Below are positions 21,291 to 37,220 of a stretch of 64,000 nucleotides of DNA, piece by piece (within the stretch, counting starts at the first letter, position 1; each line of letters starts with the position of its first letter). Below the pieces are notes generated by a model that saw nothing but the letters and a program-made list of their open reading frames with translations, searched no databases and was not told the origin of the DNA. Position numbers and translations under genes: made by a program. The stretch covers positions 17,205-81,204 of the forward strand of contig CP091726.1 in NCBI GenBank assembly GCA_022009835.1, read 5' to 3'. The stretch is from Bacilli bacterium (GTDB taxonomy: Bacteria; Bacillota_I; Bacilli_A; RF39; UBA660).

Positions 21291-21302
21291 ATATTTAAAA
21301 TT

Positions 21303-21845
21303 TTATTTATGTTTTCGTTTATATAAGTATACCCCTCCTGATATTACCCCTATACCTAAGATTGTGTTTATTAAACTATTATTATCCTTTTCATCTTCAC
21401 TATCATTATCTTCAATATTTTTACTAGTGGATATTATGCAACTTCCATCATCAATCTCTGCCTTTGGATCATAGTTGTCTGCTGATGGATTTTTACATCC
21501 TAGTACATAATATTCACAGGTTCCATCATCTTTATTTGCTGATGAATTATAGTTCTTTGCTGTTTCATCTGTGCATCCATATGTATAATAGATACAACTT
21601 CCATCATCTCTATTGGCACTAGAATTATAATTACTTGCATTTTTATCTGTGCACCCATAAGTATAAGTAACCGTTGGTGTACATGTACAACTGGGACTTA
21701 AAGTACCATCATTACAAACCAATCTTCCAGAACTACTGCAACCGCTAACACCACCATGATGAGAACAGCATCCCTTTGTTGCACTAACTTTCAATGGTGC
21801 TAATAATATTATACATACTAAAATCAATTTTGTTTTTTCCTTCAT
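21303..21845 (-). CDS. secreted, C-terminally anchored Cys-rich repeat protein (intact, 180 aa)
   Basis: Signal peptide MKEKTKLILVCIILLAPLKVSA. GCCSHHGGVSGC module. 3.5 repeats of YGCTD..A.NYNSSAN.DDG(S/T)C.Y. Acidic linker. TM plus KRKHK tail. Confidence 0.75.
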   Translation of the reverse strand: MKEKTKLILVCIILLAPLKVSATKGCCSHHGGVSGCSSSGRLVCNDGTLSPSCTCTPTVTYTYGCTDKNASNYNSSANRDDGSCIYYTYGCTDETAKNYNSSANKDDGTCEYYVLGCKNPSADNYDPKAEIDDGSCIISTSKNIEDNDSEDEKDNNSLINTILGIGVISGGVYLYKRKHK

Positions 21846-21874
21846 TAAATATCACCCTACCACAAAAAAAGACG

Positions 21875-21910
21875 CAGCACAAAAAATCTATTAAATAGAC
21901 CTGTACTAGC
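21875..21910. repeat. 36-nt perfect repeat X, copy 1, about 30 nt upstream of the Cys-rich protein start
   Basis: CAGCACAAAAAATCTATTAAATAGACCTGTACTAGC, identical to 26050-26085. Confidence 0.85.
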
Positions 21911-21972
21911 ATCCTTATTTAATTATTTTTTTAATTCTTTGAATATTTTACCATGTTTTCGTTTACATTATC

Positions 21973-22521
21973 TTAATCTTTCTTTATTAATTTAAAATCA
22001 CAATTATTGGAGTTATATAAATGGACATCATCTGTTATAGTTAATGTTTGTTTTTCTCCATTTTGATTAAATTGTAATTTTTGCTTATTGTTATAAGCTG
22101 TTCCGTTATCTGTCGCATATCCAGTATTATAATCTAACCATAAAAAAAGCATATCGCATCTGCTGTTCGAGTTGCTTCTACTTCATATGTTCCATTAGGA
22201 AAATAATAAAAATATTCTTCTTTTCCCTCATACTCCACTAATTTTTCCATAATCACCTGATGATTTATAAATTAGTTCGTATGAAACAATCGCATCAGTA
22301 TTCCTATTTTGATTTTCCTCGGTTTTCTTTACTTCATATTTTTTATTTTCTTCTTGCTTAATTATTTCGTTTTCTTTGGTTTTAGAATCATTATTTTCGT
22401 TATTTCTTTCTGGTTTTGCTGGAAAGCATATTATCCATGCAATAAGAATAATTATTGGAAGTGCTATTCTTGCAATTTTTTTAAATACTTTTTCATCTAT
22501 TGTATTAAATTTATTCCCCAA
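21973..22521 (-). CDS. hypothetical N-terminally anchored protein, frameshifted
   Basis: TM IARIALPIIILIAWIICF, then a K/E/N-rich linker, then a beta-rich end ...GYATDNGTAYNNKQKLQFNQNGEKQTLTITDDVHLYNSNNCDFKLIKKD. Confidence 0.4.
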
Positions 22522-22553
22522 TAAGTTTATAGAAAATTTGAAACAAACTTAAA

Positions 22554-22808
22554 CTAAATAAAATTGCAAAAAAATACTTTCTCCTGGATTTTTTTAGTTA
22601 TTGAAGTTAAGTAGGCTACTATTAATAGTCCACCAAATATATATAAAATTATATTCCATATTTTTTTTACAATACTCATTGTTCCTACATTCACTTCATC
22701 AGGAACTTTTGCTCTTTTTAATATTGATGTCGTACGGTGTTCCACATTTAGGACAATAAGAATAAACATCTTTATATTGGTTTTTTTACACTTTCTACAC
22801 TCTTTCAT
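22554..22808 (-). CDS. zinc-ribbon plus single-TM small protein, frameshifted
   Basis: MKECRKCKK...YSYCPKCGTPYD (CxxC...CxxC after repair), followed by TM IWNIILYIFGGLLIVAYLTSI. Confidence 0.45.
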   Translation of the reverse strand: MKECRKCKKTNIKMFILIVLNVEHRTTSILKRAKVPDEVNVGTMSIVKKIWNIILYIFGGLLIVAYLTSITKKIQEKVFFCNFI

Positions 22809-22819
22809 TTTTTTACCTC

Positions 22820-23652
22820 CTACTGATAATACCTTTCTGGAATATCATAATTTGGTTTATCTTCTATTGTTTCTTGTAGTTCTTTAGCAGCTTTTTCTAT
22901 TTGTGGATCATATTCTAATACAGACTGTTCCTCTTCGGGCTTTAACCATTTTTGTGGCACTGGGGTTGTAGATAATGTTCTTAATGTATCTACTATTCTC
23001 TGAGCATCATTTATTGTATTACTATATTTTGAACTGGATTGATCTATTGTATTTGATAATAATACAATCTCTGTATTAAATCCTTTTATATTAACGTCAA
23101 TTCCTATATGATGACATACTGGTATTTCGTTTGAAGTCGTCACTTGATTATTTTTTCCTTTAGTTGTGGTTTTACCTAAAGTAGAGCCACCAACAACTGC
23201 TCCAACCGGCCCTAAAATTAATCCACCTGCTACTGCACCACCCAGTGAAGCATTCTTCCTAGCTTTTTGATTATATGTTCCTGTAGTATTTGTAATGGTT
23301 CTAAATCCATCATTAGTTTTAATCTCTGCACCTTTTATGTCAGAAAAAATATATAGTTGACCATTTATATTTATTTTCCCTTCTGTCATATTATAAGAAA
23401 AGTTATCTCCTATTAATTTCCATCTGCTTCTTGCTATTCTATTTATTTCATTTTTCTTTCCATCTTGGAGATTCTTTAATTTGTTTTGAGCATTTTTAAC
23501 ATTATTATCATATTGTTTATCTCTATCCTTATGAATTTTTAGTTTCAACTTTATTTATGTATTTTTCTAAATTTTTTTCTTGGTTTTATACCACAATATC
23601 CGCAAAAAATGTCACCATCATCAATAATTTTTTTACATTTAACACACTTCAT
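22820..23652 (-). CDS. zinc-ribbon / glycine-zipper protein (about 275 aa if the N-terminal 33-aa piece is joined)
   Basis: MKCVKCKKIIDDGDIFCGYCG at 23652. Main ORF has GGAVAGGLILGPVGAVVGGSTLG (glycine zipper) and an acidic C-terminus. Own promoter-like region at 23660-23830. Confidence 0.5.
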
Positions 23653-23830
23653 TCCATTCACTCCTTACTACTTTTTATTTCATTTTAATTATAACATACT
23701 TTTTTTGATTATAATATCTTTTTTTGTTGTTTATCATTCTATTTTTCTTATAATATCACACTAATATTAATTTGCTTATAATGTCCAATACTTTTTTTGT
23801 TTCCTACCAACCTTAAAATATTTTTCTTAT

Positions 23831-24172
23831 TTAGTATACTTGCTGAATTGTTTTTTTGAATATTTTTTTAAAACATATATCAAAAAGTAGTAGCAAACAG
23901 CTTATTATAACCACAAGCCAATTATTCATAATAAATGTAATTAATTTAATCAATATAGAACATGCAAACCATATAAATACAAATGCTAAAAATCTTATCG
24001 TCCAGTGAGCAATAGAGCCTGCTTCTCCTCTTAATTCTGATTTACCTACAATGCCAAATGCAAGTTTAAACGCTATGAGCCCTATGATTGTCATTGCAAT
24101 ATAATTATAAATTGGATTCTTCAAATAAAAGAAAATGACGCTGTTCTTAAATCAAATATAAATTTTTTTCAT
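23831..24172 (-). CDS. small multi-pass membrane protein
   Basis: About 3 hydrophobic helices (YIAMTIIGLIAFKLAFGIV, RFLAFVFIWFACSILIKLITFI, LVVIISCLLLLFDI). Lies immediately downstream of RT2. Confidence 0.5.
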
Positions 24173-24244
24173 ATTTCACCCCTACTTCTTCTAGTCAGTA
24201 CTAAATAAAAAAATTAATATTAAATTTCTTAACCATTTAATTAT

Positions 24245-26013
24245 TCAAAAATGTATAAATTTAACATCATTATCTAACATTATTTTTGAATAAATTTAAT
24301 TTCTTTTTTTAATATCACATCTTGCATTATATTATTTAGGTCAGTTTCAAATAAAATAGTATTTTTTTAAATCCTTGTTTAGTGTGTATTTTTCCAACTA
24401 ATGCAGTTTGTATAAAATAATAACCAATATTTGCTATAATAACTAGCTTTTTTTCCAATCGTTGCTGTATCTTTTTAATTAATTCCTTTTTTTATATTTG
24501 TTAAATATTCCTTTATTTGCCTCTTATAAACACCTAACAAATTATTTTTATTAAAATATTCAAAACTTAAAATAGCTCCTAAATCACTTTTGCTCATGAT
24601 AACAAGCATATATTTTGTACTTTCATCATTACATATGTTTAATTTAATTATTAAATACGCTAACCATATATCAGTTATTTCTTTTTATATGAGAAATTCT
24701 ACTATTTCTCTTTTTTTAATCCATTTTATAATAATTCTATCTTTATCAAGTTCCGTTAAATTAAATATTTCTACAATCAAATTAAACGCATCGGGGGATA
24801 TCATATTTTGTTTAAACATCATATTAATTAAAAAAATCTAATAATATTTCTGCAGTATCGTTATCGAAATAATCTTTTGTAATAACATTCTTTTTTTATA
24901 TTTTTGTAGTAAGAATTTTTTTAACAAGTATTTACAATTACTATATTTTTATATTTTTACAGAATTATTTATTTCGTTCATTACATCCTCAATAAATTCA
25001 AGTTTATCTTCGTATGCATTTTCTTCAATTCTTTTCATCAATAAGAAAACATTCTTATTTTTGTATAGTATTTAATGATATAAAAAGGAAATTCTTCTAA
25101 TTTCATTTTTATTCATATTTAAATCCAACTTATAATTTGACAAACTTTCACTTATTAATAATCTTGTATCATTTTTCTAAACTTTCTTTTTGAATCTGAA
25201 TAAAAAAATCATAATCATCACAAAATCGTACAAAGCTTATATCTTTTTCCTTGCATTTCTGAATTATATTTCTATCAACTTTAGATATAATTATTTCTGA
25301 CAACAGACTAGAAGTATATGGTCCAATTACTATTCCTTTAGTTTCGTTTCTATTTAATGTTCTATTCAAAACATCCAAATTATCAAAAAAATTATCTTGT
25401 TAGCATCATTTTTTTAAATTCCAAGAAATTGTATGAGTATATATACTATTAAAAAAATTATTTATATCCACTCCTAAATGATAGTATTTTCCATCACATA
25501 TTTTTTGTTTATTTAGTAAATTATACTGATAATTAGGTTGTACTACGTTAGCATAGTCAAGCATTGTTGGTACCTCATCATAATCGTATAATCTTATAAA
25601 CTGACCTTCTTCAAAAGAGAATCTTGATGATGAGTCATAATTATCTGTAGCATTAACTTGCTCCTCTAATATTTCTTCATGATATTTATTTATATAATAA
25701 TGTAAGGGAATTAAAACCAAAGGATTAACTACAGAAATAATTCTATTAGCACCATTCGGTTTAGATATATATATATATCGATTGGCTCAGTTCCCTTTTT
25801 TAAACCAAATATATTGTCATTATATCCTTCAAATTCTTTAATTTTTTTCCTGCTTCAAGTATAAAATTATCATTTAATATTTCTTCTATATTATCATATG
25901 AATTATATATATCATCTAGCTTATCATACAAGTTCAAATTAGTAAAAACAATTTGGTAAATGTTTTTGTTGGAAAAAAACAAATGATTCTTTTACAACAT
26001 TAATTTCACTCAT
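24245..26013 (-). CDS. Abi/UG-class reverse transcriptase (AbiA/AbiK/DRT-like, about 590 aa), heavily frameshifted
   Basis: ISKPNGANRIISVVNPL; VDINNFFNSIYTHTISW (Abi-type motif 1/2); ETKGIVIGPYTSSLLSEIII (motif 3/4); SFVRFCDDYDFF (motif 5). The about 300-aa C-terminal part is unreadable without repair. Confidence 0.7.
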
Positions 26014-26049
26014 CTTATCACACCTACTTCTAGTTAATACAAAAAACAC

Positions 26050-26085
26050 CAGCACAAAAAATCTATTAAATAGACCTGTACTAGC
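26050..26085. repeat. 36-nt perfect repeat X, copy 2, about 35 nt upstream of the RT2 start
   Basis: Identical to 21875-21910. Confidence 0.85.
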
Positions 26086-26229
26086 GTCTTTCTTTAACTA
26101 AGTTAAGTATATCAAATTATTTTTATTTAATCAATAAATTTAGACAAATTTCTCTATACTAAAATAATATTAGTATATATCTATAGCTTATATATAATAG
26201 ATGCAATAGGCATAATAAAATATATATAA

Positions 26230-26525
26230 TTATTTATTACTAACTATCTCATCCAATTTACTTCTTATAATACTTTCTTCTCTACTGCCATTAGTAGTTA
26301 ATCTTATTAATGGTATATTATATTTAGATAGTATATTATTCTTTAATATATCTCTTTCTTTTTTTGTTTATTATCTTCTTTATGATATTTATATCCATCT
26401 ACTTCTATCACTAATAATGGTACTTTACTTATCTTATTATATATTAAGAAATCTATATGAGTATTATGGTGAGAAGCATATTTTCTTTCTTCTTCTGTTA
26501 ATAATGTTTTATCTTTTATTAATAT
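26230..26525 (-). pseudogene. second DUF2726-like fragment
   Basis: Near-identical nucleotide sequence to 20999-21290. Confidence 0.4.
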
Positions 26526-26535
26526 ATCTGAAGTC

Positions 26536-26970
26536 TTATTTATGCTTTCTTTTATACAAGTATACTCCTCCTGATATTACTCCTATACCTAAGATTGTGT
26601 TTAATAAACTATTGTTGTCTGTTTTGTCTTCATTATCATTATCATCAATATTTTTACCAATTGATATTATACAACTTCCATCATCCATCTCTGCCTTCGG
26701 ATCATAGTTGTCTGCTGATGTTTTTTTACATCCTAGCACAAAATTAGTTCTCAAATTTAATTACTTGCATTTTTATTTGTACTTCCATATGTATAAATTA
26801 CTATTGGAGTACATATGCAACTAAGGCTTAAAATACTATCGTTACAACTCAACTTTCTAGAACTACTACCGCCACTAATACCACCATGATGAGAGTGCCA
26901 TTTCTTTGTTAAACTAACCTTTAATGTTACTAATAATATAACGCATACTAAAAATTCATTTTTTTCTCCA
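26536..26970 (-). pseudogene. decayed paralogue of the Cys-rich repeat protein
   Basis: Only the last repeat plus anchor remains open (GCKKTSADNYDPKAEMDDGSCIIS...GVISGGVYLYKRKHK). Upstream part has stops and an internal deletion relative to 21303-21845. Confidence 0.7.
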
Positions 26971-27219
26971 TATCATGCAATCCATAAAATCCTCTATGTA
27001 TATCTCTTGTTATGCAAAGCATACTATTGCCTCTTCTTTAATAAACATGTAACTAATATTTAATTTCCCAACTATCTTCATGATATTTTTTTATATTCAA
27101 ATTCATTATTACTGTTCATAGTTAACATGTATTTATATTCACGAATTTTTTATTATATTTTTTTCAACAAATCCCATCCAAACTATGTTTAAATTATTTT
27201 TCTTTTTAAAAAAATTCTA

Positions 27220-30200
27220 TTAAAAACATCTTTTTTTATTACAAATTTTTGTTTGACCTGTCTCTATTTTTTTGTCATAACAAACAATTCTACCTTTGCT
27301 ATTATACCAATACCCATCTTTAGATTGTGTTAAACCTAATTTTTCTATTAAAAATAATGACGGCTGTTCTATACTATAGTTTTTCAGGTTTAACAACCGA
27401 ATGATCATATTCACTTGAAAAAAATCATATGTATTGTTTGTTATAAAGCAATTTTGACGTTCATTGTTAAACTCAATTTTTTTATTACTCTTCCAAGGAT
27501 ATTCCATTAATAGCATTTCATAATTAGAATTAGTGCCAGCAAACATTGTCTGTAATTCATTATCATTTAAAACCAATTCTCCTTCATATATATATGCTTG
27601 AAATATAATATCTTTTGAAGCATGATAACTATATTCATTATATAATCCAGTTTCTAATGTTAATAAATCAAGTTTTTCCTTTTCGTATTTAACTGAATTA
27701 TTTAACACTATTTCATCATCAAAAAATATGAATTCTTTTGCATCCACATCCTCATTTATCCATTTTTTTCATTTAATTCATCTATTAAATATTGTTTTTT
27801 TTGTTTTGGCATTTTTAATTAAATTGGATACATCAATATTCAATTTTTTTCACATTCATCATAATATTGCTTTTTATAATGAGCTTTTTCTATATTTATT
27901 GTTTTTTTCATATCATATGTATAGTATTCAGTTGAAGAATCAAAGAGTTCATCATCATATATTCTAATATAACAATAATAATTATCTTGTAATCTTGCCA
28001 TTAACTCATGCATGGCAATCCATTGATATTTTTTTCCAATTCTCTCTGTAGCATGCTCGTGTCGATATTTACTATAATTTTGATTATAATCAAAATAACC
28101 AAATTTTTCAACATCATAACCCATATCAAATACCCTTTTTATAACAATATTGCTTAAGTCTTGTTCAGAAGAAAAGTTTTTAACCCAAGGTGATATTCTA
28201 TATCCAAAATAATATCGTCCAAAATCACCATACATTCCCAAATCACCTGCAGACTCAGTCAACATTGAATGTATGATAGTATTTTGTGAGTATAAATATA
28301 ATTTTTCTTTTGATATAGTTTCATAATCTATCACATATTTTTTTATATCATCATTAGTAGGAATATTTTTTTATACCATTTTTGAATTATATGGCGCATT
28401 TATTTTTCTCTTCGTCAAATTCAAGAGAGTTATTATTTTTCTTTAATATAAATTAATATATTTTTTTAGCATAATATCTTACTACAATATTTGAAATTAC
28501 TTCTTCTGATAAAAAAACACTTCTGAATATATATATTCAGATAATTTTTCAAAACTATCTTTATTATTACTTCTTAATATTGCACCATAGCAAGATGCAT
28601 ATATTCTTTCCATTATATACATATCATTCACAGTTTTAAAATTTTTCAAAACATCTAACATCGTGTTAATATTATTTGTCATAATATTTACTAAAGCTTT
28701 TGTTGCTAAATCTCTTATTTCTCTATTTGGGCTGACTAAAAACCATGAAAGTATAATGCCTAACATTAATCTATTAATACTATTCAAATTGTCCATATTC
28801 GAATACAAACAGTATTTTTATTATATTTATTGACTTTTTCATAATCAATATATATTGTAAATCTATAATCACGTTCTTGCAAACTCATTTTCAATAATTT
28901 TTCATTATATCTTTTTATATTAAACGGACTAGATTCTATCGCTGCACAGTAATAAAATAATTCTTCATATGCTCTCATAGAATATGGAGACGTCGATGCA
29001 ACTTGGTTAATAAATTTTTGTAAATTTGTCTTTTTGCATCAAAGTTTATTTTTTTCTCCATACTAAACTTTTTATATATGAGTACAGTATATTATCATCA
29101 TTTACAACATCATATATATCAAAAATATTCTATGCCATAATTGTTACCTATCTTTATAAAAAAATATTTTTTTCAATAATTCAATATCATAGCTATATTT
29201 ATTTAGTATTTTTAGTTTTTGTCTTATTAATTTTTTTCCATTATTTATTATTTTTTTAATCAACGTTTTTTTGCATTTAAAATACATGTATATTTTTTTC
29301 AAATGCAAAATAATAATTTGCTTCTTTTTGTATAACAACTTTCAAATAATAATCCTTCTGATTTTTAAATCATCCAATAAATTTATTGGAGAAATATGAT
29401 AATTCTGTAAAAATAATTCTAGTAACATCACAAAAATTCATTTTTTTATAAATGACAATTTAGAATTATCTATAAGAATAATACTAATAACATCAAATAT
29501 TTCATCCAATAAATTATTGGATGGATCAAATTTATACTTTGATGCTATTTTTGTCATTAATTTTTTTTATAAATTTCTCGAATATCCTCTCAAATGATTG
29601 ATAGTCTTGAAGTAAAATGTCAATGTTGTAATCTTGGATCCACTTACATGTAGATATTAAAAATAATGGATTAGAATACTCATCATTTATTATAGGAAAT
29701 AATGGTATCGGTACATTATAATAATTAAATATTTCATTCATCGCATCATATACATTTTCTTCAAAGCCACGATGACATGCTATTTTTACAATGCTTTTAT
29801 CAATATCGTCTGGTATACAAATATCATAATAATCATCTCTAATTGATAATATCAATTTAACATAATCATATTTTTTTAAATAAACCTATTATGCTGTTTT
29901 AATTGATTTTTTTCCAATTTTCTTTTAGTTTTTTTCCCTCATTTATTGCATCAATGATAAATGGAATAAATATGTTTTTTTCTTTCCCGACTGCATTTAA
30001 ATCTCTAATAAAATTTTTCAAAAAGTCTCATTTAATTCTAAAAATATCTTTAATTTGAAGCTTGTAGTTTTTTTCTTCGTTAAGATGTTGTCCAAGAATA
30101 AAAAAATTGCTTCATGCTCATTGTTTATGCAATTATTTTTCTATAAAATATGCTAACACATGTGATTTACCAGTTCCCATTTTACCAGTTATTATCATAA

Positions 30201-31167
30201 CTTTTTTCGACAATAAATCGAGAACTTCAATACATTCTTCATAATTACTAAAAAGTTCGTCTATCTTTTTGACTTTCATTATAGTTTTTCTCTTTTTCAT
30301 CTACCGTCAAAAGATATTCTTCTTTTTCTTTCATAAATACCCTTACCAATTATTTTTAGTGATTCTTTCAAACAACCAACATTAATTATTTTTATAATTA
30401 TTAATTAATTTCAAATAATTTTCTTTTTAATCTATCTAAATCTTCTTTTTTTCTATTATTTTTTTCCATTCCATCCGTTTGATTCTACTATAACTTTTCT
30501 AATTTCATTTAAAATATAATTAACATCAGTATGACAAGGTAAATAGTTGATTAAATCCTTATAAATTGGAACATCCACATTTAACTCTTTATTATATCTA
30601 AATCCCAAATCTAATATATTATTTTTCATTATTTGTTTTTAAACCATTCATAATCTCTATTATAATTTTTCAATATAAAATGCTTCTTTAATAAAATCGG
30701 AGACTTCTGATACTTTATTATTTACTTTTTATAATATCAACAAAATCTTCTATAAAATATCTGTCTTTAGTTTTTTTCAAAAAGCATAGTCATTTGGAAT
30801 TTCAAAAGATTGCTCTATATTCTTTTTTTATCAGCTAAAATAATAAATCTTAATTTATAACTGGAATCAAATTTAGATATAAATTTAGTTATTGTATTTC
30901 TTATTTTATTTGAACTATTGTCAGTTGTAACTTGGTATACTAATTTATTATCTTCATCTAGAAGATCTATTGATTCAAAAATTTTTTTCTAAAAACATTA
31001 GCATTTATTAATTTATAACCGTATATTGTATTTAATAAACCGCAAAAAAATCTTCACTTATTATACAAATATCATTTTAAATTTAATTTTGTGTTCATTT
31101 TTGTATATGTTTTTAAAATTGATAAACTTTTTGCTATAGTTTTTATATTCATTTCTTCTTTCAACAT
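27220..31167 (-). CDS. giant (about 1300 aa) SMEK-like N-terminal domain / P-loop NTPase (STAND-like) protein, heavily frameshifted
   Basis: N-terminus ...KLNLKDICIISEDFFAGLLNTIYGYKLINAN...LVYQVTTDNSSNKIRNTITKF...YKLRFIILADKK. Walker A ITGKMGTGKSHV (about 30163-30195). Walker B-like FIIDAINEG. Long helical C-terminus through ORFs 29532, 28497, 27840, 27220. Confidence 0.65.
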
Positions 31168-31316
31168 AAGCTTACTGCGCCTCCACTTTTAAAAAAAGCA
31201 ATATTAACCCTAATAACAAGATTAAATACTGCTCATCTTTTTATATGATTATATCATATATTTCTATCATTTTTTTAAATTTTTTTATCTATATTTTATA
31301 AATAAATTTTAAACTA

Positions 31317-31367
31317 ATATCTTAATACCTAATCATTTCTTTGTAATGGTATCTGAACTCTCCACCT
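31317..31367. repeat. 51-nt conserved intergenic element, copy 2
   Basis: ATATCTTAATACCTAATCATTTCTTTGTAATGGTATCTGAACTCTCCACCT; see 6407-6457. Confidence 0.7.
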
Positions 31368-31401
31368 TTAGAATTTTTAATATCGCAGTTAAATAATTTA
31401 T

Positions 31402-32195
31402 TTAATCCTTATTATCACTGTTCTTTTTTTCTTGTCTTTTTTTTGAAGCTTTATCTAGCATTAATTTATAAATGATTTTCTCGTAATTTGAATATACTTT
31501 TTTGCTTTCATAAATATCACTTCTTAACATTTTTAAAAAAATATAATCTAATAAAAAAAGCTAAATAAAGAAAATATTCCCAAAATTAATGGTAATAATA
31601 CAGCATAATTATCTTCTGGTTTTTACTCCACTTTTTATCAAAAAAATGATGTTAAAACAATCATTATTTGTGAAACAAAAAAAATAAAATAATTGGATTT
31701 TTAACAAAATTATTTAATATATTTACTTTTTCTTTCTCTTACGCTAATTTCTTTATTATCAATTAACTCATTTTTCCTTTTTCCAAAATCTTTTAAATAT
31801 TTCATATGTAAAATCTATTAATTCTTTTTTTATTAACTTCATCAATATATTTACTTTCATTTATATCCATTATTAATTTATTTCTTAAATCTATTTCGGA
31901 GAGAACAAATCTTTCCTTAATATTAGAATCCATTATTATTGCTCTTCTTATGTCAATAATAAGATTAGAAGATATCTTGATTTTTTTCTATTATGTAAGG
32001 TCTAACTGAATTGATAAATCTATCATTTACATTATTAATCTTTTTTTAGTATCTTTTTCTTAAACGAAAAAAATTTCAGAACTATTGCGGGTATTGCTAT
32101 AACTAATATTCCTGTAATAATTGGAGCAATCCAATTTACTACAATTTCGTTGATTAAAAATTGGTTTTTATCACATTTTCATAAATTTCTTTCAT
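31402..32195 (-). CDS. hypothetical membrane protein, frameshifted
   Basis: AAAGGAG RBS. MKEIYENVIKTNF.INEIVVNWIAPIITGILVIAIPAIVLKFF... Further hydrophobic stretch near the C-terminus. No domain recognised. Confidence 0.4.
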
Positions 32196-32401
32196 AATAT
32201 TTCTCCTTTGATGAGATATTATATCACTAAAAAAACTATTTTTTTCCATTTTTTTATCATAAAATTTTTCTAATTAAATTCCTATTTTTCACATAAAAAA
32301 AGTAATTTACGATATTACATTACACTTAAATATAATAATTATATTTTTTTATTTAATGTTCTTTTTGATGATAACACTGATATTTTTGGTATTTTTTTCA
32401 G

Positions 32402-32486
32402 TTTAATTGTTAATACCATTTAATTAATAATTACTTCTTTATACTAAAAATAATATTAGTATATATCTACTGCTTATATATAATAG
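32402..32486. repeat. about 85-nt boundary repeat E1, copy 3 (copies 1 and 2 are the left ends of R1 and R2)
   Basis: TTTAATTGTTAATACCATTTAATTAATAATTACTTCTTTATACTAAAAATAATATTAGTATATATCTACTGCTTATATATAATAG aligns with 20888-20975 and 26150-26212. Confidence 0.7.
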
Positions 32487-32657
32487 GTATCTTGGATACT
32501 TTTTAATTAAGATAAGTTTACTTAGCTTAATTAAACACTAATAAGACTTACATAGTAAGGCTTATAGTGGACATAATAAAGATAATATATAGGTATATTA
32601 AAACTAAGACTTGATATCTTAGTTTATTATTTAGTCAATGTTAATGTTTTTTTATTT

Positions 32658-33438
32658 TTAAAAATCTTTAGTATCATAACCCCATGGATTAGATACTAAT
32701 CTAGTATTATTTATTATTATATCTTCTTCTTTATGATCATGACCATATATCCATACTGGTGATTTATATTCTTTAACTTCTGTATAGTAACAAGAGTTAT
32801 TACCTCTACTATTATTTTTATTTCTAAATGGTGGTACATGAGTTATTATTAAATCTATATTATTTGGTAAGTTATTATACCAAGATATGCTATCGTTATG
32901 TAGTTTTTGTATTTTATCTTTCTTAGATAATTCTGATAAGATAAATCTTGAATCATTCTGTATAGGATAGTTATATAGTTTATCTACTAATGTTACTGGT
33001 TTATACCAAAGGGTATCTCCCGCTAATAAGAAGGTATTATAGGTATATAGTCCTTTAGTAATATTTGTTTTTATCTAGTATGATTATATCTTTTACTATC
33101 TTTAAATATTTCATTTAATCTATATACTTTATTCATACTATTATAGTTATATTCTTTAGCCATAGGATCAGTATAGATATATTTTTATTACTGGTATATA
33201 GTATTCATGATTACCTAGGACAAATATTACTTTTTTTATAGTATTTTGAACATGAATATAATAGTTCACTCACTCTATTTATATCTTCATCGATATCTCC
33301 CGCTACTACAAGGATATCTCCTTTTACTTGCTTGCTTATTTTATCTTGGACTAATTTATCTATTTTAGTTATGCTTTCTTTTTTACTTATGTAGTGAGTT
33401 AAGTGTAAATCAGATACGTAGTCAATGTTTAATTCCAT
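32658..33438 (-). CDS. calcineurin-like metallophosphoesterase, frameshifted
   Basis: DYVSDLHL (motif I), VVAGDI (II), VLGNHEY (III), ...ITHVPP..., IYGHDH (V). Confidence 0.7.
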
Positions 33439-33464
33439 GGTATTTTTCCTTTCTAGATGCTTAT

Positions 33465-33493
33465 ATTATATAGAAAGATGCAAATTATGTCAA
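33465..33493 (-). promoter_or_regulatory. consensus sigma-A promoter for the phosphoesterase gene
   Basis: Minus strand TTGACA-17 nt-TATAAT, about 27 nt upstream of the ATG at 33438. Confidence 0.6.
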
Positions 33494-33494
33494 A

Positions 33495-33526
33495 TAAAAA
33501 AACCATTGACACTTTTTATATGTCAA
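33495..33526 (-). terminator. rho-independent terminator after the HExxH gene
   Basis: Minus strand TTGACAtataaaaagTGTCAA followed by TGGTTTTTTT. Confidence 0.5.
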
Positions 33527-33543
33527 CAGTTTCTGCGGATAAG

Positions 33544-34302
33544 TTATTTATTATTACATTTGCTTATGAATTCTTCTTCGTGTTCTTTTAAATAGTTATA
33601 ACTTTCTTCAATAGCGGTCTCTATACTATTATTTTTATATATGCTTGTTATTTTTGTCTAATAAATTTATATTATCTATTTCTACATTATAAAAAGATAT
33701 CATAGCATTTAAACTTATGTTTATATATTTTTTGTATGTTAGTACTATTTAGTATTGGGTCTATGACTATTTCACTTAAATACCATAACAAGCTTGGACC
33801 ATCAAAATCTTCATACTTCCAATTCGGATATATTTCTTTACATTTCTCAAAGAAAAGGAAATGACATAATTCATGCATACAGGTATCTATTAAATCTTCT
33901 TTATTTTTCTTATGAATATCAAAGGCTTTTTCTTTAATGTATCTAGGACATACTGGTATTAGTCCTATTCCTACTGATATTTCTTTATATTCTTTTGGCC
34001 ACTTTATATTAAAGTAATTACTTAGTTCTAACATATATTTATCATTGTATTCATTCCAGATAGTGGTATATTCTTCTCTCAAGTTATTATTTTTCCTTTT
34101 ATAAAATTATTATATCTATCTTGAATTATGTCTTTGATATTATCTTCTTTGGTAAGTCTTTTTTTAATTCTGGATATAGGAATAATGTTCCTTCTTTTTA
34201 CTGATAATATATTATCAGTATCTTTAAGTGTCCATGATAGTATGTCAGATGTTTCTTCAAGAGTTAAATATTTAAATTTTTAAATTTTGGTATGTTATTC
34301 AT
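33544..34302 (-). CDS. hypothetical protein with HExxH motif (possible metallopeptidase), frameshifted; may be two genes
   Basis: AGGAGG RBS plus ATG at 34302. ORF 33687-34082 contains CMHELCHFLF. C-terminal extension ...NVEIDNINLLDKNNKHIYKNNSIETAIEESYNYLKEHEEEF. Confidence 0.4.
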
Positions 34303-34318
34303 ATTTCCTCCTATTTAA

Positions 34319-35936
34319 TTATATCATATTTTGTTTATTTTTCTCACGATAATCATCATAATTACCAATATATCTAGTGATGTTCTTATTTTTTATTTCT
34401 ATTATACTAGTAGCTATTTTTATTTATGAAATATCTATCATGAGATACAAATAATATAGTACCAGTAAACTCCTTTAGTGACTCTTCAAGCATTTCTCTT
34501 GTATCGATATCAATGTGATTAGTGGGTTCATCTAGGATTAAGAAGTTATATGAATTTTGGATTAGACAGAATATTTTTAATCTTACTTTTTCTCCTCCGG
34601 ATAAGTATTTTATTTTTTTATGAATGTTTTCTCCTGCAAAGAGGTATTTGAATAAAGCACTTCTTAAATATTGTTCTGGTCCAATGAAATATTTTCTAGC
34701 TTCTTCTAGTACTGATAAATTAATATCTTCAAACTCGATCTCTTGAGGAATATAACCTATCTTGATATTACTTCCTAGTTTTATACTATTATTTCCTTTT
34801 TAATATTTCTTTTGATTAGAGTTGATTTACCAACTCCATTATCTCCGACTAGACAGAGTCTATCTTGATATTTAATACTTAAGTTAAGGTTATTAAATAT
34901 TTCTTTAGTACCATAAGATAGATTTAGATTATTTATTGTTAATACATCTTTTTCCTGATCTACTAGCGGTATCAAAAGTTATATTTAGTTTTTTCTTGTC
35001 TTCTGGTTTATCTAACTTTTCTAGTTTTTCTAATCTTTTTTCGATACTAGCGGCTCTTCTAAAAAAATATTTCTCCACCACTTGGTCCACAAAGCCTGCC
35101 ATATTCTTTTTAATCTTTTGATACTATTTTTCCATAGCGGTTATTTGTTTTTGTTGGTCTTTATAGTTTTTTAATTCTAGTAATAGTCTATTTTCACTTT
35201 CTTTAATATAGTAACTATAATTGCCGTGATATACTTCTATTTCTCTTTTAGTTAATAAATATACTTTGTTTATGACATTATCCATGAAATAGCGGTCATG
35301 TGATACTAGTATTATTGTACCTTTATAGTTCTTTAATGTTTTTTCTAACCAAATCATTTTATTTATATCTAAGTGGTTAGTGGGTTCATCTAATAATAAG
35401 ACATCTGGTTCTTGTAATAATAATCTTATTAGAGATATGATGGTTTTTTTCTCCTCCAGATAGGGTATTGAAATTTCTATTTAATATTTCTTCAGTTATA
35501 TTAAATACTGGTAGTATTTTTTTGAATCTTTGTTTCATATTCATAACCTCCTAGGGAGATAAACTTCTCTTGCAGATTCATATACTTTGTTATTACTTTA
35601 TAATCTTCAGTTAAAAGTTTATCTTCATATCTTTCTAATTTTTCTTTTAGTTCTATTATTTCTTTAAAGGCACCATTTATATAGTCTTTTACTATTATAT
35701 CTTTTTCTTCAGGTATTTGACTTAAATAGCCTATACTTATATTATTTCTTATTGAAAGGGAACCGGAATCTATACTTTCTTGGCCTGCGATTATTTTTAG
35801 TATAGTACTCTTTCCACTTCCATTTGTTCCAATTAAACCTACTTTTTCTCCTTTTTGTACTGTTATATCTATATTATTTAATACTAAGTCAAAAACCAAA
35901 TGACTTACATACTTTACTTATATTTATATCTATCAT
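34319..35936 (-). CDS. ABC-F family ATPase (two NBDs, no TM domain; ARE/ribosome-protection type), frameshifted
   Basis: NBD1 Walker A GTNGSGKST, LLLDEPTNHLD, VSHDRYF. Inter-domain linker. NBD2 GDNGVGKSTL, LSGGEK, LILDEPTNHIDI. Confidence 0.85.
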
Positions 35937-35951
35937 AATATTCCTCCCATC

Positions 35952-36092
35952 AAAAAGTTATATGAATATATTGCATCCATATAACTTCTATTTATATATA
36001 TAGATGCAGGCACGACAAAAACTCACACCCACATCTCATTTTTTTTACTTTTATTTTTGATGAGATAAAGGTGTGATATTTATAGTAAACAT
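35952..36092 (-). promoter_or_regulatory. leader-peptide transcription attenuator of the ABC-F gene
   Basis: 13-codon ORF MFTINITPLSHQK (36051-36092) overlaps the 5' arm of terminator CACACC..ATCTCAT/ATGAGAT..GGTGTG plus T5 (36016-36075). Second 10-bp hairpin plus T-run at 35956-35987, just before the RBS. Confidence 0.55.
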
Positions 36093-36179
36093 GATTACAT
36101 TACCTACATATTTATACATAAATATCCCTCCATTTATAATATATTATAGTTTTTTTACTTTTTGTCAATTGTTTTTTTA

Positions 36180-36236
36180 CACTGCAAGCCATTTGTCTTG
36201 CTAGTGTTATTTGGAGCCTAGTTGGTCTCCAAATAA
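36180..36236 (-). repeat. tandem-hairpin element, copy A (inverted relative to B-D)
   Basis: Minus strand: TTATTTGGAG-ACCAACTAGG-CTCCAAATAA, then CACTAGCAAG-ACAAATGG-CTTGCAGTG. Confidence 0.55.
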
Positions 36237-36368
36237 GTATTAATTATACTTATTATATATAAGTATGAAATATATACTTAAAGTAGTTTATTATTGGTAT
36301 GTTATTTTTGAGTATAATAATAGTGCAATATACTTGACTTTTTATGATAGTTATAGTATCATTGTATT

Positions 36369-36483
36369 ACCGGAGAGAAATCTCGTCAGGTCGATAGCTC
36401 AATGTCGATTTTATTAAATTAAGTGTATGTTAAGTACACCGCTTGAGTTGGGGAGAGACTACTAGATAGTCTCTTTTCTTTTT
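36369..36483 (+). ncRNA. candidate about 115-nt small RNA with its own promoter and terminator
   Basis: TTGACT-17-TATCAT at 36334-36362. GAGA-GAAA-TCTC and GTGTA...TACAC hairpins. Terminator GAGAGACTA-ctaga-TAGTCTCT plus T-run at 36453-36483. No ORF. Confidence 0.25.
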
Positions 36484-37220
36484 ATGGGAATAATAGTTTA
36501 TGATCGATAATATCAATATCAGAATCAATATTTGATAATGCTCTTCTTCTAGTAGTGCCTGCGATTAAATCTGCTGCCTGCACTAAGTAACTCTTACCTG
36601 AATCTTGATATGTTAATCTTATTTCTAATTTTCCATATAATATATTTTTGTATATTATGTCATAATTAAAATTAGATATTCCATGTAGTAATTCTTCTGT
36701 TAGGCCATCTTTTAAATTATAATAACCATTACTTTTTGTAGATTGTTCATCTATATTTATTATTAATCTCACATTTTTATTTGGGTTTATTTTTTTATCT
36801 TTTATTAATTCTTCAATGGTACTTTTAATTAATCTTCTTATTGTGTAATCTATGTATCTTCCTTTTGAGGCTTTATTATTTATAATATGATTATATACTT
36901 TTTGTATTATTTATTACTAGGGCAATAGTATAATATTTACTTATATAGTTCATAATCCTTCTTTTTATGACCTTTCTTGATATTTGTATTTTTTTATTTC
37001 TTTACATTTTTTTAGTACATTCTCCTTTTTGTTTGGCCACAGTAAGAACATTTTTATTTCATTTATTATTTTACGATATTGAGTTATAAATTTATCTTTT
37101 TTTCTTGTTTTTGATAAAAAGACTATTCCTGCATATACTGATACCTTTTTCCTTTTTTGTTAATTTACCTGAATCATCTAAATTTATATATATTTCTTGA
37201 TATTCTTCTTTTTTATTCAT
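36482..37220 (-). CDS. DUF3800-family protein, frameshifted
   Basis: N-terminal EIYINLDDSGKL (DESG-like box). C-terminal ORF with YLVQAADLIAG (DUF3800 Q.AD..AG box). Confidence 0.55.

What the first reader, a model, noticed from the sequence alone, without database searches (positions are those of the whole stretch)
27220..31167. About 1300-aa SMEK-like / P-loop NTPase giant protein (STAND-type candidate defence sensor)
At least nine ORF fragments join on the minus strand into one protein. The N-terminal about 170 aa (...KLNLKDICIISEDFFAGLLNTIYGYKLINAN...VYQVTTDNSSNKIRNTITKF...LRFIILADKK) resembles the SMEK domain described in ABC-three-component conflict systems. Next come Walker A ITGKMGTGKSHV and Walker B-like FIIDAINEG, then about 900 aa of helical sequence. 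SMEK fused to a STAND-like NTPase in a single-gene layout is not a system I can name.
Basis: partly seen in the sequence, partly recalled or inferred. Interest (0 to 1): 0.7.

Follow-up and report, generated by a model that had tools for sequence, protein, structure and literature searches.

The report
Avs2 phage sensor with SMEK nuclease
This is a single gene of about 1,346 codons for an Avs2-type bacterial antiviral sensor with a SMEK (Mrr-like nuclease) head; it looks shattered here only because of homopolymer-length errors in the sequence, so it belongs to a known defence family and is not a new system.

Summary
The minus-strand fragments between 27053 and 31167 form one gene. Five independent short-read assemblies carry the same gene as one intact 1346-codon ORF. 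The window copy differs from it by 68 A/T homopolymer-length changes (4->5, 5->7, 6->7, 8->7), one substitution and one in-frame codon insertion. The same homopolymer distortion affects the whole window, so the frameshifts are almost certainly technical.

The protein can be named: it is an Avs2 (AVAST type 2) antiviral STAND NTPase. PADLOC Avs2 scores 648 bits in one stretch over residues 139-1318. The solved EcAvs2 structure 9O4E matches at E=1e-81. Walker A/B and the bridging-ATP triad of the terminase pocket are conserved.

The N-terminal 148 aa pass the curated SMEK_N cutoffs and are homologous (E=7.5e-18) to the solved 'Mrr domain' of the Kordia short-pAgo partner. All ten near-invariant polar residues of the SMEK family are present.

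The likely mechanism is phage large-terminase binding, ATP-dependent tetramerisation, activation of the nuclease head and abortive infection.

The SMEK head is an uncommon swap for the classic Mrr head of most Avs2 proteins, but SMEK also heads other STANDs, Lamassu and pAgo partners. Verdict: a new member of a known kind, of low interest.

The parts
27053..31167 (-). Whole SMEK-Avs2 gene. It is 1346 codons in the intact orthologue P0001/L001 and would be 1347 here after homopolymer correction. In the window it is broken by 68 homopolymer-length errors.
   Evidence: The start and stop were matched exactly to the L001 gene. After homopolymer compression the two copies differ by 1 substitution and 1 in-frame insertion. 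PADLOC Avs2 PDLC02162 scores 647.8 bits on P0001.
31168..31190 (-). Ribosome-binding site (GGAGG) about 12 nt upstream of the ATG.
   Evidence: Read directly from the upstream sequence, which is identical in the window and L001. No promoter could be assigned: the scan found 58 sites against 52.6 expected.
30717..31167 (-). N-terminal SMEK_N domain (aa 1-148), an Mrr-like restriction-endonuclease-type effector head. Signature residues are D32, E38, N46, N55, N57, D67, D70, Q78, T80 and K87.
   Evidence: Pfam PF21941 E=2.5e-27. NCBIfam SMEK_N 96.4 bits. PDB 26bh 'Mrr domain from Kordia jejudonensis Mrr-APAZ pAgo' E=4.7e-8 for the single sequence and 7.5e-18 for the profile. The signature residues are 95-99% conserved in 146 diverse SMEK cluster representatives. 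The AF2 model has alpha-beta-beta-beta-alpha-beta topology, pLDDT 83.
30217..30716 (-). Helical extension between effector and NTPase (aa ~149-310), including the Avs2-conserved motif W172...LGxRY(N). Boundaries are approximate.
   Evidence: It aligns to EcAvs2 residues 168-340. This element is described for EcAvs2 and KpAvs2 in PMC13601566 and PMC11564622.
29453..30216 (-). STAND NTPase module (aa ~311-560). Boundaries are approximate.
   Evidence: It aligns to the EcAvs2 ATPase. Pfam hits to NACHT, NPHP3_N and AAA are weak.
30163..30186 (-). Walker A motif GKMGTGKS (K327).
   Evidence: Exact match in the window. The lysine is invariant in 19 aligned Avs2 proteins and corresponds to EcAvs2 K348.
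29938..29964 (-). Walker B region FIIDAINEG (D397, E401).
   Evidence: Exact match in the window. D and E are invariant in 19 aligned Avs2 proteins and correspond to EcAvs2 D417/E421.
27712..29452 (-). TPR-like alpha-helical sensor region (aa ~561-1130). It includes GDFGRY (D961) and the R1015 loop, which correspond to the bridging-ATP contacts D981 and R1132 of EcAvs2. Boundaries are approximate.
   Evidence: Alignments to EcAvs2. The contact residues come from PMC13601566.
27056..27711 (-). C-terminal sensor domain (aa ~1131-1346). It includes the SEYD motif (E1230 = EcAvs2 E1364), E1310 and E1319.
   Evidence: It aligns to EcAvs2 1334-1473. The finding's coordinates stop 167 nt short of its end.

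Best explanation
The region encodes one protein, a divergent member of the Avs2 (AVAST type 2) family of antiviral STAND NTPases. Its N-terminal effector is a SMEK-type, Mrr-like restriction-endonuclease-fold domain.

Proposed mechanism:
1. In uninfected cells the protein is a latent monomer.
2. During infection, the pocket formed by the TPR-like region and the C-terminal sensor binds the ATPase domain of the phage large terminase subunit, helped by a bridging ATP.
3. The ATP-bound NTPase modules then assemble into a tetramer.
4. This brings the four SMEK heads together and switches on non-specific DNA cleavage, which kills or arrests the cell before phage progeny are released (abortive infection).

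Shown here:
- It is a single gene.
- Homology and collinearity with Avs2.
- Conservation of the Walker motifs and of the bridging-ATP triad.
- SMEK_N membership and homology to a solved Mrr domain.
- A defence-island setting.

Inferred from characterised relatives (EcAvs2, KpAvs2, SeAvs3, KjAgo/SMEK-APAZ):
- The terminase trigger.
- Tetramerisation.
- DNase activity.
- The abortive outcome.

The many frameshifts in the window are sequencing or assembly homopolymer errors, not pseudogenisation.
For: Avs2 identity:
- PADLOC Avs2 PDLC02162 scores E=2e-143 on my stitched protein and 1.2e-194 (647.8 bits) on the intact orthologue, in one stretch covering residues 139-1318 against profile positions 139-1348 of 1379.
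- NCBIfam Avs2 is the top hit.
- PDB 9o4e, 'AVAST type 2 anti-phage system protein Avs2', matches at E=1.4e-81.
- BLASTP against EcAvs2 is collinear: 27% over 861 aa plus 25% over 364 aa.

Functional residues (roles from PMC13601566):
- Walker A K327 and Walker B D397/E401 are invariant.
- The EcAvs2 bridging-ATP triad R1132/D981/E1364 is conserved as R1015/D961/E1230.
- E1444 and E1462 are conserved as E1310 and E1319. W1266 corresponds to Y1154.

Effector head:
- The SMEK_N curated cutoffs are passed.
- The profile match to the solved Kordia Mrr domain 26bh is E=7.5e-18 over 141 of 145 positions.
- All family-wide near-invariant polar residues are present.
- The AF2 core model has REase-like alpha-beta-beta-beta-alpha-beta topology.
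- The top Foldseek neighbours are nearly all PD-(D/E)xK nucleases.
- The literature calls SMEK Mrr-like, and KjAgo with SMEK-APAZ cleaves DNA in vitro.
- Most Avs2 homologs use Mrr-like dsDNA nucleases. The KpAvs2 Mrr head degrades DNA, and its K71A mutant loses defence.

Intactness:
- The identical 1346-aa protein occurs on 5-6 contigs from different samples, with 0-2 nt differences.
- All frame breaks in the window are homopolymer-length changes.
- The distortion is window-wide.

Context:
- A DRT reverse transcriptase lies immediately downstream and DUF3800 upstream.
- Relatives sit next to Gabija-like genes or a type II R-M system.
Against: - NCBIfam's Avs2 equivalog score is 563 bits, below its curated cutoff of 1000. 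A classic Mrr-type Avs2, P0017, also fails at 940 bits.
- Identity to the only structurally characterised Avs2 is just 25-27%.
- Two EcAvs2 contact residues are not conserved: T1128 corresponds to Y and E1362 to S.
- The SMEK head lacks the canonical (D/E)xK lysine. It has Q78-V-T80, with K87 on the next helix.
- No Foldseek match reaches E<=0.001. The best values were 0.06 and 0.15, with TM up to 0.49.
- The only biochemistry on a SMEK head (KjAgo) is described as weak nuclease activity.
- KpAvs2 can be triggered by non-terminase proteins and needs an accessory protein, so the trigger cannot be read from sequence alone.
- I have no reads for the window, so real frameshifts in this particular strain cannot be formally excluded.
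Confidence: 0.85

Rival explanations
1. The gene is a true, heavily decayed pseudogene in this strain: the frameshifts are real mutations.
For: The window sequence as given has about 40 frame switches. I have no read data with which to verify the base calls.
Against: - Every frame break is an A/T homopolymer-length change in a stereotyped direction (4->5, 5->7, 6->7, 8->7), with no stop-creating substitution. Otherwise there are only 2 benign differences in 4 kb.
- The same distortion hits intergenic DNA and housekeeping genes such as uvrA and the PASTA kinase.
- The window has no homopolymer longer than 8 at 24% GC, and its length spectrum is non-monotonic.
- Real decay would include substitutions and non-homopolymer indels.
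Confidence: 0.03
2. It is an Avs2-type sensor, but the SMEK head is not a non-specific DNase. It could be an RNase, a nickase, a DNA-binding or adaptor module that recruits another effector, or an inactive fold.
For: - The canonical catalytic lysine of (D/E)xK is replaced: the motif is QxT.
- Foldseek similarity to PD-(D/E)xK nucleases is not significant.
- KjAgo/SMEK-APAZ nuclease activity is reported as weak.
- EcAvs2 shows that Avs2 can carry a non-enzymatic head.
Against: - Ten polar residues (D32, E38, N46, N55, N57, D67, D70, Q78, T80, K87) are 95-99% conserved across 146 diverse SMEK clusters, which is typical of an active site.
- A depositor named the solved homologue an Mrr domain.
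- SMEK always occupies the effector slot in Lamassu, short-pAgo partners and STANDs.
- Relocation of the catalytic lysine to a neighbouring helix is known in the PD-(D/E)xK superfamily (my own knowledge).
Confidence: 0.12
3. It is an Avs2-fold sensor, but its natural trigger is not the large terminase. It could be a small Ksap-like phage protein or another ATPase.
For: - KpAvs2 is activated in vivo by Ksap1 and Ksap2 as well as by terminases, and EcAvs2 is activated by vs.8.
- The sensor is only ~25% identical to EcAvs2, and T1128 and E1362 differ.
Against: - The bridging-ATP triad that contacts the terminase-bound ATP is conserved, as are E1310 and E1319.
- The reported alternative activators bind the same pocket and add to terminase recognition; they do not replace it.
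Confidence: 0.15
4. It is part of an ABC-three-component (Lamassu-type) or short-pAgo system, as the SMEK annotation might suggest, and not a stand-alone STAND.
For: - SMEK_N was named in ABC-3C/Lamassu systems and is found in SMEK-APAZ pAgo partners.
- The PADLOC Aga_REase profile hits the N-terminus.
- An ABC ATPase gene lies about 3 kb upstream.
Against: - The PADLOC Aga hit covers only profile positions 7-151 of 463, which is the head alone.
- There is no APAZ, pAgo, LmuB/SMC or middle-component gene nearby.
- The upstream ABC protein has the ABC-F layout (two ABC_tran domains plus ABC_tran_Xtn) and is separated from Avs2 by three other genes.
- Neighbours are not conserved among relatives.
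Confidence: 0.01

Closest known systems
EcAvs2 (Escherichia coli Avs2; PDB 9O4E; PMC13601566)
   Same: The two proteins are collinear from the helical extension through the STAND ATPase and TPR-like region to the C-terminal sensor. Walker A/B, the bridging-ATP triad (R/D/E) and two acidic terminase contacts are conserved. Both are single polypeptides.
   Different: Identity is only 25-27%. EcAvs2 has an uncharacterised, apparently non-enzymatic head; this protein has a SMEK/Mrr-like head. It is ~140 aa shorter. T1128 and E1362 are not conserved.
KpAvs2 and the classic Mrr-headed Avs2 majority (PMC11564622; e.g. P0017, P0025, P0060)
   Same: The architecture is the same: a PD-(D/E)xK-type nuclease head, a helical bundle, a STAND module and an Avs2 sensor. 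The KpAvs2 head degrades DNA and is essential for defence.
   Different: The classic head has the FE..C..L...PDAGVE...QAKYF motif with a canonical QxK. It is not detectably similar in sequence to the SMEK head. KpAvs2 works with the accessory genes Avap1/2, and no conserved accessory is seen here.
SMEK/Mrr-APAZ partner of Kordia jejudonensis short pAgo (PDB 26BH; KjAgo)
   Same: The N-terminal head is homologous: E=7.5e-18 over the whole domain, with shared motifs SEDFF/AEHFL, IDLxD, Q(V/I)T and K...T..KF.
   Different: There the head is fused to APAZ and activated by guide-directed target binding of a pAgo. Here it is fused to a STAND NTPase protein sensor.
SMEK effector of short Lamassu / ABC-3C systems
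   Same: The same Pfam/NCBIfam SMEK_N domain sits in the N-terminal effector position.
   Different: Lamassu needs LmuB (SMC-like) and often LmuC. Neither is present here.
SeAvs3 / EcAvs4 (Gao et al. 2022, as summarised in PMC13601566)
   Same: They follow the same logic: a phage-protein sensor, STAND tetramerisation, then activation of an N-terminal nuclease.
   Different: They have a different sensor fold and a different (Cap4-like) nuclease. Their tetramers are elongated, whereas the Avs2 tetramer is flat.

Membership tests
Avs2 (AVAST type 2) | Collinear homology of the NTPase plus the Avs2-specific sensor to Avs2 family profiles | tested here: met
   PADLOC PDLC02162 scores 647.8 bits, E=1.2e-194, in one stretch covering residues 139-1318 against profile 139-1348 of 1379. 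All six PADLOC Avs2 models hit. PDB 9o4e matches at E=1.4e-81 in 3 collinear stretches.
Avs2 (AVAST type 2) | Score above NCBIfam NF041813 (Avs2 equivalog) curated cutoff of 1000 bits | tested here: not met
   P0001 scores 563.1 bits and the stitched window protein 394.8 bits. EcAvs2 scores 1690.8 bits. A classic Mrr-type Avs2 (P0017) also fails at 940.1 bits, so the cutoff defines a narrow equivalog and not the whole family.
Avs2 (AVAST type 2) | Intact STAND Walker A lysine and Walker B acidic residues | tested here: met
   K327, D397 and E401 are invariant in 19 aligned Avs2 proteins. Both motifs are read exactly in the window.
Avs2 (AVAST type 2) | Terminase/bridging-ATP pocket residues of EcAvs2 (R1132, D981, E1364; also R1130, T1128, W1266, E1362, E1444, E1462) | tested here: met
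   The triad is conserved as R1015/D961/E1230. E1310 and E1319 are conserved. R1130 corresponds to K and W1266 to Y. T1128 (Y here) and E1362 (S here) are not conserved (residue roles).
Avs2 (AVAST type 2) | Tripartite layout with an N-terminal cell-killing effector | tested here: met
   The order is SMEK_N (aa 1-148), helical extension, NTPase, sensor.
Avs2 (AVAST type 2) | Activation by phage large terminase, tetramerisation, anti-phage protection | not testable with these tools
   This needs co-expression toxicity, plaque and oligomerisation assays.
Avs2 (AVAST type 2) | Genomic association with other defence genes | tested here: met
   In the window a DRT RT lies directly downstream and DUF3800 upstream. 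P0039 sits beside OLD-TOPRIM ATPase plus UvrD (Gabija-like) genes. P0010 sits beside a type II R-M system. P0012 has no obvious defence neighbour. Only 4 contexts were examined, so this is not a statistical enrichment test.
SMEK_N (PF21941 / NF033859) | Score above curated domain cutoffs | tested here: met
   Pfam 95.9 bits against a cutoff of 27. NCBIfam 96.4 bits against a cutoff of 30.
SMEK_N (PF21941 / NF033859) | Family-wide conserved polar signature (D32, E38, N46, N55, N57, D67, D70, Q78, T80, K87) | tested here: met
   All are present in the window protein and in P0001. Each is 95-99% conserved in 146 cluster representatives with diverse architectures.
Mrr-like / PD-(D/E)xK nuclease superfamily | Homology to a solved Mrr-type domain | tested here: met
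   26bh_D, 'the Mrr domain from Kordia jejudonensis Mrr-APAZ pAgo', matches at E=4.7e-8 (sequence) and 7.5e-18 (profile).
Mrr-like / PD-(D/E)xK nuclease superfamily | REase core fold (alpha-beta-beta-beta-alpha-beta) confirmed by structure comparison | tested here: inconclusive
   The AF2 models (pLDDT 76 and 83) show the expected order of elements. The top Foldseek hits are PD-(D/E)xK nucleases (Can2, PspGI, CdiA-CT, T7 endo I, Hjc), but the best E-values are 0.06 and 0.15 and TM is at most 0.49. 26bh did not appear in either Foldseek result list; the library covers releases up to April 2026.
Mrr-like / PD-(D/E)xK nuclease superfamily | Canonical D...(D/E/Q)xK catalytic motif | tested here: not met
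   D67 is present, but the beta3 motif is Q78-V-T80. The only invariant lysine nearby is K87, on the following helix. This is a variant active site shared by the whole SMEK family and by the Kordia domain (QIT).
Mrr-like / PD-(D/E)xK nuclease superfamily | Metal-dependent nuclease activity | not testable with these tools
   There is only literature on a relative: KjAgo with SMEK-APAZ has weak collateral nuclease activity.
ABC-3C / Lamassu | SMC-like ABC ATPase (LmuB) and middle component encoded with the SMEK protein | tested here: not met
   The neighbours are an unknown 256-aa protein, a Metallophos protein, a 249-aa protein and an ABC-F-type ATPase (2x ABC_tran plus ABC_tran_Xtn) three genes away. 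Neighbours are not conserved in relatives.
Short pAgo effector (SMEK-APAZ, SPARDA-like) | APAZ domain and adjacent short pAgo | tested here: not met
   The PADLOC Aga_REase-PNTD1-PNTD2 hit is limited to profile positions 7-151 of 463, the head only. No PIWI or APAZ gene lies in the locus.

The most novel reading that the evidence does not exclude
SMEK-headed Avs2 proteins form a small, so far unnamed sub-clade. I found about 15 clusters at 90% identity, all from metagenomes, and none among 64 Avs2 loci from GTDB species genomes. Their non-canonical Q-x-T...K head might do something different from the classic Mrr DNase (for example RNA or structure-specific cleavage, or nicking). Alternatively, their divergent sensor might recognise a trigger other than the terminase in phages of uncultured low-GC Bacilli.
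Probability: 0.12. Interest if true: 0.45.

Novelty: new member of a known kind. Interest (0 to 1): 0.2.

Why it matters
The main value is for annotation.
- A gene that looks like nine or more junk fragments, and whose intact copies carry no source name in the protein collection, can be confidently labelled a single-gene Avs2 antiphage sensor.
- The case shows that NCBIfam's Avs2 equivalog cutoff misses divergent Avs2 proteins from low-GC Firmicutes.
- It adds Avs2 to the list of sensors that use the plug-in SMEK/Mrr-like head, alongside Lamassu, short pAgo, NACHT/nSTAND3 STANDs and TPR-PIN proteins. This supports the view that defence effectors are freely exchangeable modules.
- It flags the window as carrying systematic homopolymer errors. 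Any other 'pseudogene' call from this window should be read in that light.

It does not open a new mechanistic question.

Tried and rejected
- Alternative genetic code (TGA recoding) as the cause of the fragmentation. Rejected: the coding signal changes frame, and it does not read through a single type of stop codon.
- tRNA and Rfam scans of the window gave nothing relevant to the gene.
- Pfam alone gave only weak NACHT/AAA hits for the body. The defence-specific libraries were needed to name it.
- The word-indexed search with the SMEK domain alone found only 3 fragments. The exhaustive profile search replaced it.
- Two Foldseek searches of AF2 models of the head gave no significant match.
- The GTDB genome scan found no close relative (best 31% identity) and no SMEK-headed Avs2. 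That scan is biased toward patterns taken from P0001.
- The Gao et al. 2022 paper could not be read under the PMC id I guessed. What that paper says is therefore cited second-hand from PMC13601566.
- No paper in the library holds both 'Avs2' and 'SMEK', and no supplement text was held for the 2026 Nature STAND survey. I cannot say whether SMEK-Avs2 is listed in published supplementary tables.
- The promoter/terminator scan was uninformative in this AT-rich DNA.
- Membership of an ABC-3C/Lamassu or pAgo system was considered and rejected (see the membership tests).


Full report
1. THE OBSERVATION

The window is about 24% G+C, and ORFs are short everywhere. Between 27.1 and 31.2 kb on the minus strand the coding signal jumps among all three frames. 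Stops of every type interrupt it, so frameshifts are the cause and not a recoded stop codon. A dynamic-programming stitch that allows +1/-1 shifts produced a continuous protein of about 1,320-1,366 aa with about 40 frame switches. Nearly all switches fall at or beside A/T runs of 5 or 7.

The quoted strings are all present:
- the SMEK-like N-terminus;
- Walker A GKMGTGKS at 30163-30186;
- Walker B FIIDAINEG at 29938-29964.

2. WHY THE GENE LOOKS BROKEN

The window's homopolymer spectrum is not biological. T runs number 466 (length 4), 502 (5), 81 (6), 338 (7) and 8 (8), with none longer. A runs behave the same way.

A protein search with the stitched sequence found an intact 1346-aa protein, P0001. 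It is present on 5-6 contigs from different samples, including a 74-kb SPAdes contig (L001), and its DNA differs by 0-2 nt among them. L001 aligns to window 20926-37366 at 97% identity with 279 gap positions.

Inside the gene, the differences are these:
- Homopolymer runs: 68 differ in length. A4->A5 accounts for 27 of the 46 A4 runs, A5->A7 for 12, A6->A7 for 5, T4->T5 for 9, T5->T7 for 5 and 8->7 for 3.
- Other differences, seen after collapsing homopolymers: one substitution (I134R) and one in-frame 3-nt insertion (DEKENY->DEKEKNY).

The true gene spans 27053-31167. It starts at an ATG preceded by GGAGG and ends at TAG, so the finding's lower bound of 27220 loses the last ~55 codons. I conclude that the frameshifts are technical. 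I cannot prove this for this strain without reads.

3. WHAT THE PROTEIN IS

The body is Avs2. Scores for the PADLOC Avs2 model PDLC02162:

| Query | E-value | Bits | Coverage |
|---|---|---|---|
| Stitched window protein | 2e-143 | 478 | residues 138-1316, profile 160-1327 of 1379 |
| Intact orthologue P0001 | 1.2e-194 | 647.8 | residues 139-1318, profile 139-1348 of 1379, one stretch |

All six PADLOC Avs2 models hit. The sequence search of the PDB finds 9o4e, 'AVAST type 2 anti-phage system protein Avs2' (E=1.4e-81), in three collinear stretches. P0035 from my search contains the same sequence as that chain. BLASTP of P0001 against it gives 27% identity over 861 aa and 25% over 364 aa, running from the helical extension to the C-terminal sensor.

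NCBIfam scores against the Avs2 equivalog model (cutoff 1000 bits):

| Protein | Bits |
|---|---|
| P0001 | 563 |
| P0017 (classic Mrr-headed Avs2) | 940 |
| EcAvs2 (P0035) | 1691 |

The model ranks first for P0001, but both P0001 and P0017 fall below the cutoff. That cutoff therefore defines a narrow equivalog. This probably explains why none of the sources holding these proteins gives them a name.

4. FUNCTIONAL RESIDUES

The 2026 EcAvs2-terminase cryo-EM paper (PMC13601566) describes:
- a flat C4 tetramer;
- recognition of the terminase ATPase domain;
- a 'bridging ATP' held by T1128, R1132, E1364 and D981, with R1130 on the terminase ATP;
- further contacts at E1362, E1444/E1462 and W1266.

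In a 19-sequence alignment plus a local realignment, the correspondence is:

| EcAvs2 residue | P0001 residue | Status |
|---|---|---|
| Walker A K348 | K327 | invariant |
| Walker B D417 / E421 | D397 / E401 | invariant |
| R1132 | R1015 | conserved |
| D981 | D961 (GDFGRY vs GDFSRY) | conserved |
| E1364 | E1230 (SEYD vs EEFD) | conserved |
| E1444 | E1310 | conserved |
| E1462 | E1319 | conserved |
| R1130 | K1013 | conservative change |
| W1266 | Y1154 | aromatic retained |
| T1128 | Y1011 | not conserved |
| E1362 | S1228 | not conserved |

The triad whose triple mutation disrupted EcAvs2 defence is therefore intact. This is the best available sequence evidence that this protein also senses a terminase-type ATPase.

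5. THE N-TERMINAL HEAD

Residues 1-148 pass the curated SMEK_N thresholds of Pfam (95.9 bits against 27) and NCBIfam (96.4 bits against 30).

What SMEK is:
[quoted passage not shown] Kordia jejudonensis pAgo with its SMEK-APAZ partner shows nuclease activity.
- It is also one of the interchangeable LmuA heads in short Lamassu, the ABC-3C system.
- The PDB holds 'the Mrr domain from Kordia jejudonensis Mrr-APAZ pAgo' (26bh). It matches this head at E=4.7e-8 with one sequence and 7.5e-18 with a 14-sequence profile, over 141 of 145 positions.

Structure prediction:
- AF2 models of residues 1-200 and 28-145 (pLDDT 76 and 83) give helix (E38), strand, strand (following D67), strand (Q78-x-T80), helix (K87), strand. 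That is the order of a restriction-endonuclease core.
- Foldseek against the PDB lists mostly PD-(D/E)xK nucleases at the top: Can2, PspGI, BsaWI, CdiA-CT DNases, T7 endonuclease I, Hjc and cap-snatching endonucleases. No hit is significant; the best E-values are 0.06 and 0.15, with TM at most 0.49. I score the fold test as inconclusive.

Active-site motif:
- The canonical (D/E)xK lysine is absent. The motif is QxT, with an invariant lysine seven residues later.
- This variant is a family trait. In 146 diverse SMEK cluster representatives, D32, E38, N46, N55, N57, D67, D70, Q78, T80 and K87 are each 95-99% conserved. All are present here.

6. HOW UNUSUAL IS SMEK ON AVS2?

Among the 66 Avs2-like hits, 14 clusters (38-89% identical to the query, all from metagenome assemblies) carry SMEK. 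The rest carry one of the following:
- a classic Mrr-like head (FE..C..L...PDAGVE...QAKYF);
- a transmembrane head;
- a trypsin-like head;
- the EcAvs2-type head.

A scan of 185,579 GTDB species genomes returned 64 Avs2 loci from many bacterial phyla and from Methanobacteria. The best identity was 31%, and none had a SMEK head.

[quoted passage not shown] KpAvs2's Mrr head degrades DNA and is essential for defence.

Conversely, an exhaustive profile search shows that SMEK_N is a large family: 3,718 clusters at 50% identity with E<=1e-3. It sits at the N-terminus of proteins of many sizes. Among the top 150:
- only about six have an Avs2 body;
- others are SMEK+NACHT/nSTAND3 STANDs or SMEK+TPR+PIN proteins;
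- there is an unannotated ~900-aa P-loop class;
- the majority are ~320 aa.

SMEK on a STAND is therefore recurrent. SMEK on Avs2 is one, relatively rare, instance of a known modular swap. No paper in the searchable library mentions Avs2 and SMEK together, but I could not inspect the supplementary tables of the large surveys.

7. CONTEXT

Host: the window is chromosomal DNA of an uncultured low-GC bacterium. It carries UvrA, a PASTA Ser/Thr kinase, a sigma-70, a radical-SAM enzyme and a P-type ATPase. The nearest named UvrA relatives are 'Bacilli bacterium' MAGs at 68-74% identity.

Genes around the Avs2 gene, all on the minus strand:

| Position relative to Avs2 | Gene |
|---|---|
| Upstream | DUF3800 |
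| Upstream | ABC-F-type ATPase |
| Upstream | 249-aa unknown |
| Upstream | metallophosphoesterase |
| Upstream | 256-aa unknown |
| Downstream | 67-aa ORF |
| Downstream | DRT-class defence reverse transcriptase (PADLOC RT_UG31 E=5.6e-50; also UG30, Drt6, Drt4) |
| Further downstream, in L001 beyond the window-aligned stretch | N6 methyltransferase |

Other SMEK-Avs2 genes sit in different settings:
- next to an OLD-TOPRIM ATPase plus a UvrD helicase pair (Gabija-like);
- next to a type II R-M system;
- between NUDIX and ribosomal protein genes in a spore-former.

No neighbour is shared, so the system is a single gene. Three of the four settings examined are defence neighbourhoods.

8. MECHANISM (inferred from characterised relatives)

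The proposed steps are:
1. The protein is a latent monomer.
2. The TPR-like region and C-terminal sensor pocket bind the phage large-terminase ATPase domain, with a bridging ATP.
3. ATP-bound STAND modules tetramerise.
4. The four SMEK heads are brought together and activated as a metal-dependent nuclease.
5. Non-specific DNA degradation aborts the infection.

My confidence by claim:

| Claim | Confidence |
|---|---|
| Avs2-family antiphage sensor | ~0.9 |
| Terminase is a trigger | ~0.7 |
| The head is a DNase | ~0.7 |

9. VERDICT

This is a new, divergent member of a known kind: Avs2 with a SMEK/Mrr-like head. Its broken appearance comes from homopolymer errors. Interest is low (0.2).

The most novel reading still open is that the SMEK head or the divergent sensor does something different from classic Avs2. 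I put that at about 0.12.

Noticed in passing
window 1-64000: The window carries a systematic homopolymer-length artefact: A/T runs of 4 become 5, runs of 5 become 7, runs of 6 become 7 and runs of 8 become 7, with no run longer than 8. About one indel per 80 bp fragments every gene in the window, including uvrA and the PASTA kinase gene. Any 'pseudogene' seen here should be rechecked.
   Followed up: yes
window 24241-26013 (-): A 577-aa defence-associated reverse transcriptase lies immediately downstream of Avs2 (PADLOC RT_UG31 E=5.6e-50; also UG30, Drt6, Drt4, AbiK). It has no Pfam hit. It is followed by a 117-aa ORF, two zinc-ribbon proteins (275 aa with PH_gly_zipper; 273 aa) and a 180-aa ORF, which may be its partners.
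   Followed up: partly
window 26216-26962 and 20985-21831: Direct repeats of about 750-850 bp (78-94% identical, spaced ~5.15 kb apart in L001) flank the DRT cassette. This suggests a duplicated insertion site or a recombination-mediated cassette exchange in this island.
   Followed up: partly
window 36362-36486 (+) and 36482-37220 (-): A DUF3800-I RNA motif (Rfam RF02969, 65.6 bits) lies at the 3' end of a DUF3800 gene but on the opposite strand, overlapping it by 5 nt. The same arrangement is present in the clean L001 sequence (67.1 bits).
   Followed up: partly
L001 723-3887 (+); corresponding gap in the window at ~37366-37680: The short-read relative carries a 1054-aa SWIM/SNF2-family helicase gene between the DUF87 and DUF3800 genes. 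The window lacks it, so the content of this island varies between strains.
   Followed up: no
window 7131-7904 (-): An ORF with a BRO-N domain (Pfam E=1.2e-5) may mark a prophage or mobile-element remnant about 20 kb from the Avs2 gene.
   Followed up: no
proteins P0190-P0335: SMEK_N is a large family (3,718 clusters at 50% identity) that heads many architectures. These include NACHT/nSTAND3 STANDs (P0197, P0284, P0212), a TPR plus PIN-TPR-GreABC protein (P0324) and an unannotated ~900-aa P-loop class (13 of the top 150, e.g. P0198) for which Pfam and PADLOC recognise only the head.
   Followed up: partly
NCBIfam NF041813: The curated Avs2 equivalog cutoff of 1000 bits excludes clear Avs2 proteins from Firmicutes: the classic Mrr-headed P0017 (940 bits) and the SMEK-headed P0001 (563 bits). 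This probably explains why they remain 'hypothetical' in databases.
   Followed up: partly
window 31402-32195 (-) and 33544-34302 (-): Two ORFs upstream of Avs2 (256 aa and 249 aa in L001) have no significant Pfam or PADLOC hit; the 249-aa one has only a sub-threshold YbeY match (E=0.005). The 256-aa gene is directly adjacent to Avs2 in all five assemblies of this lineage but is absent next to more distant SMEK-Avs2 genes.
   Followed up: partly
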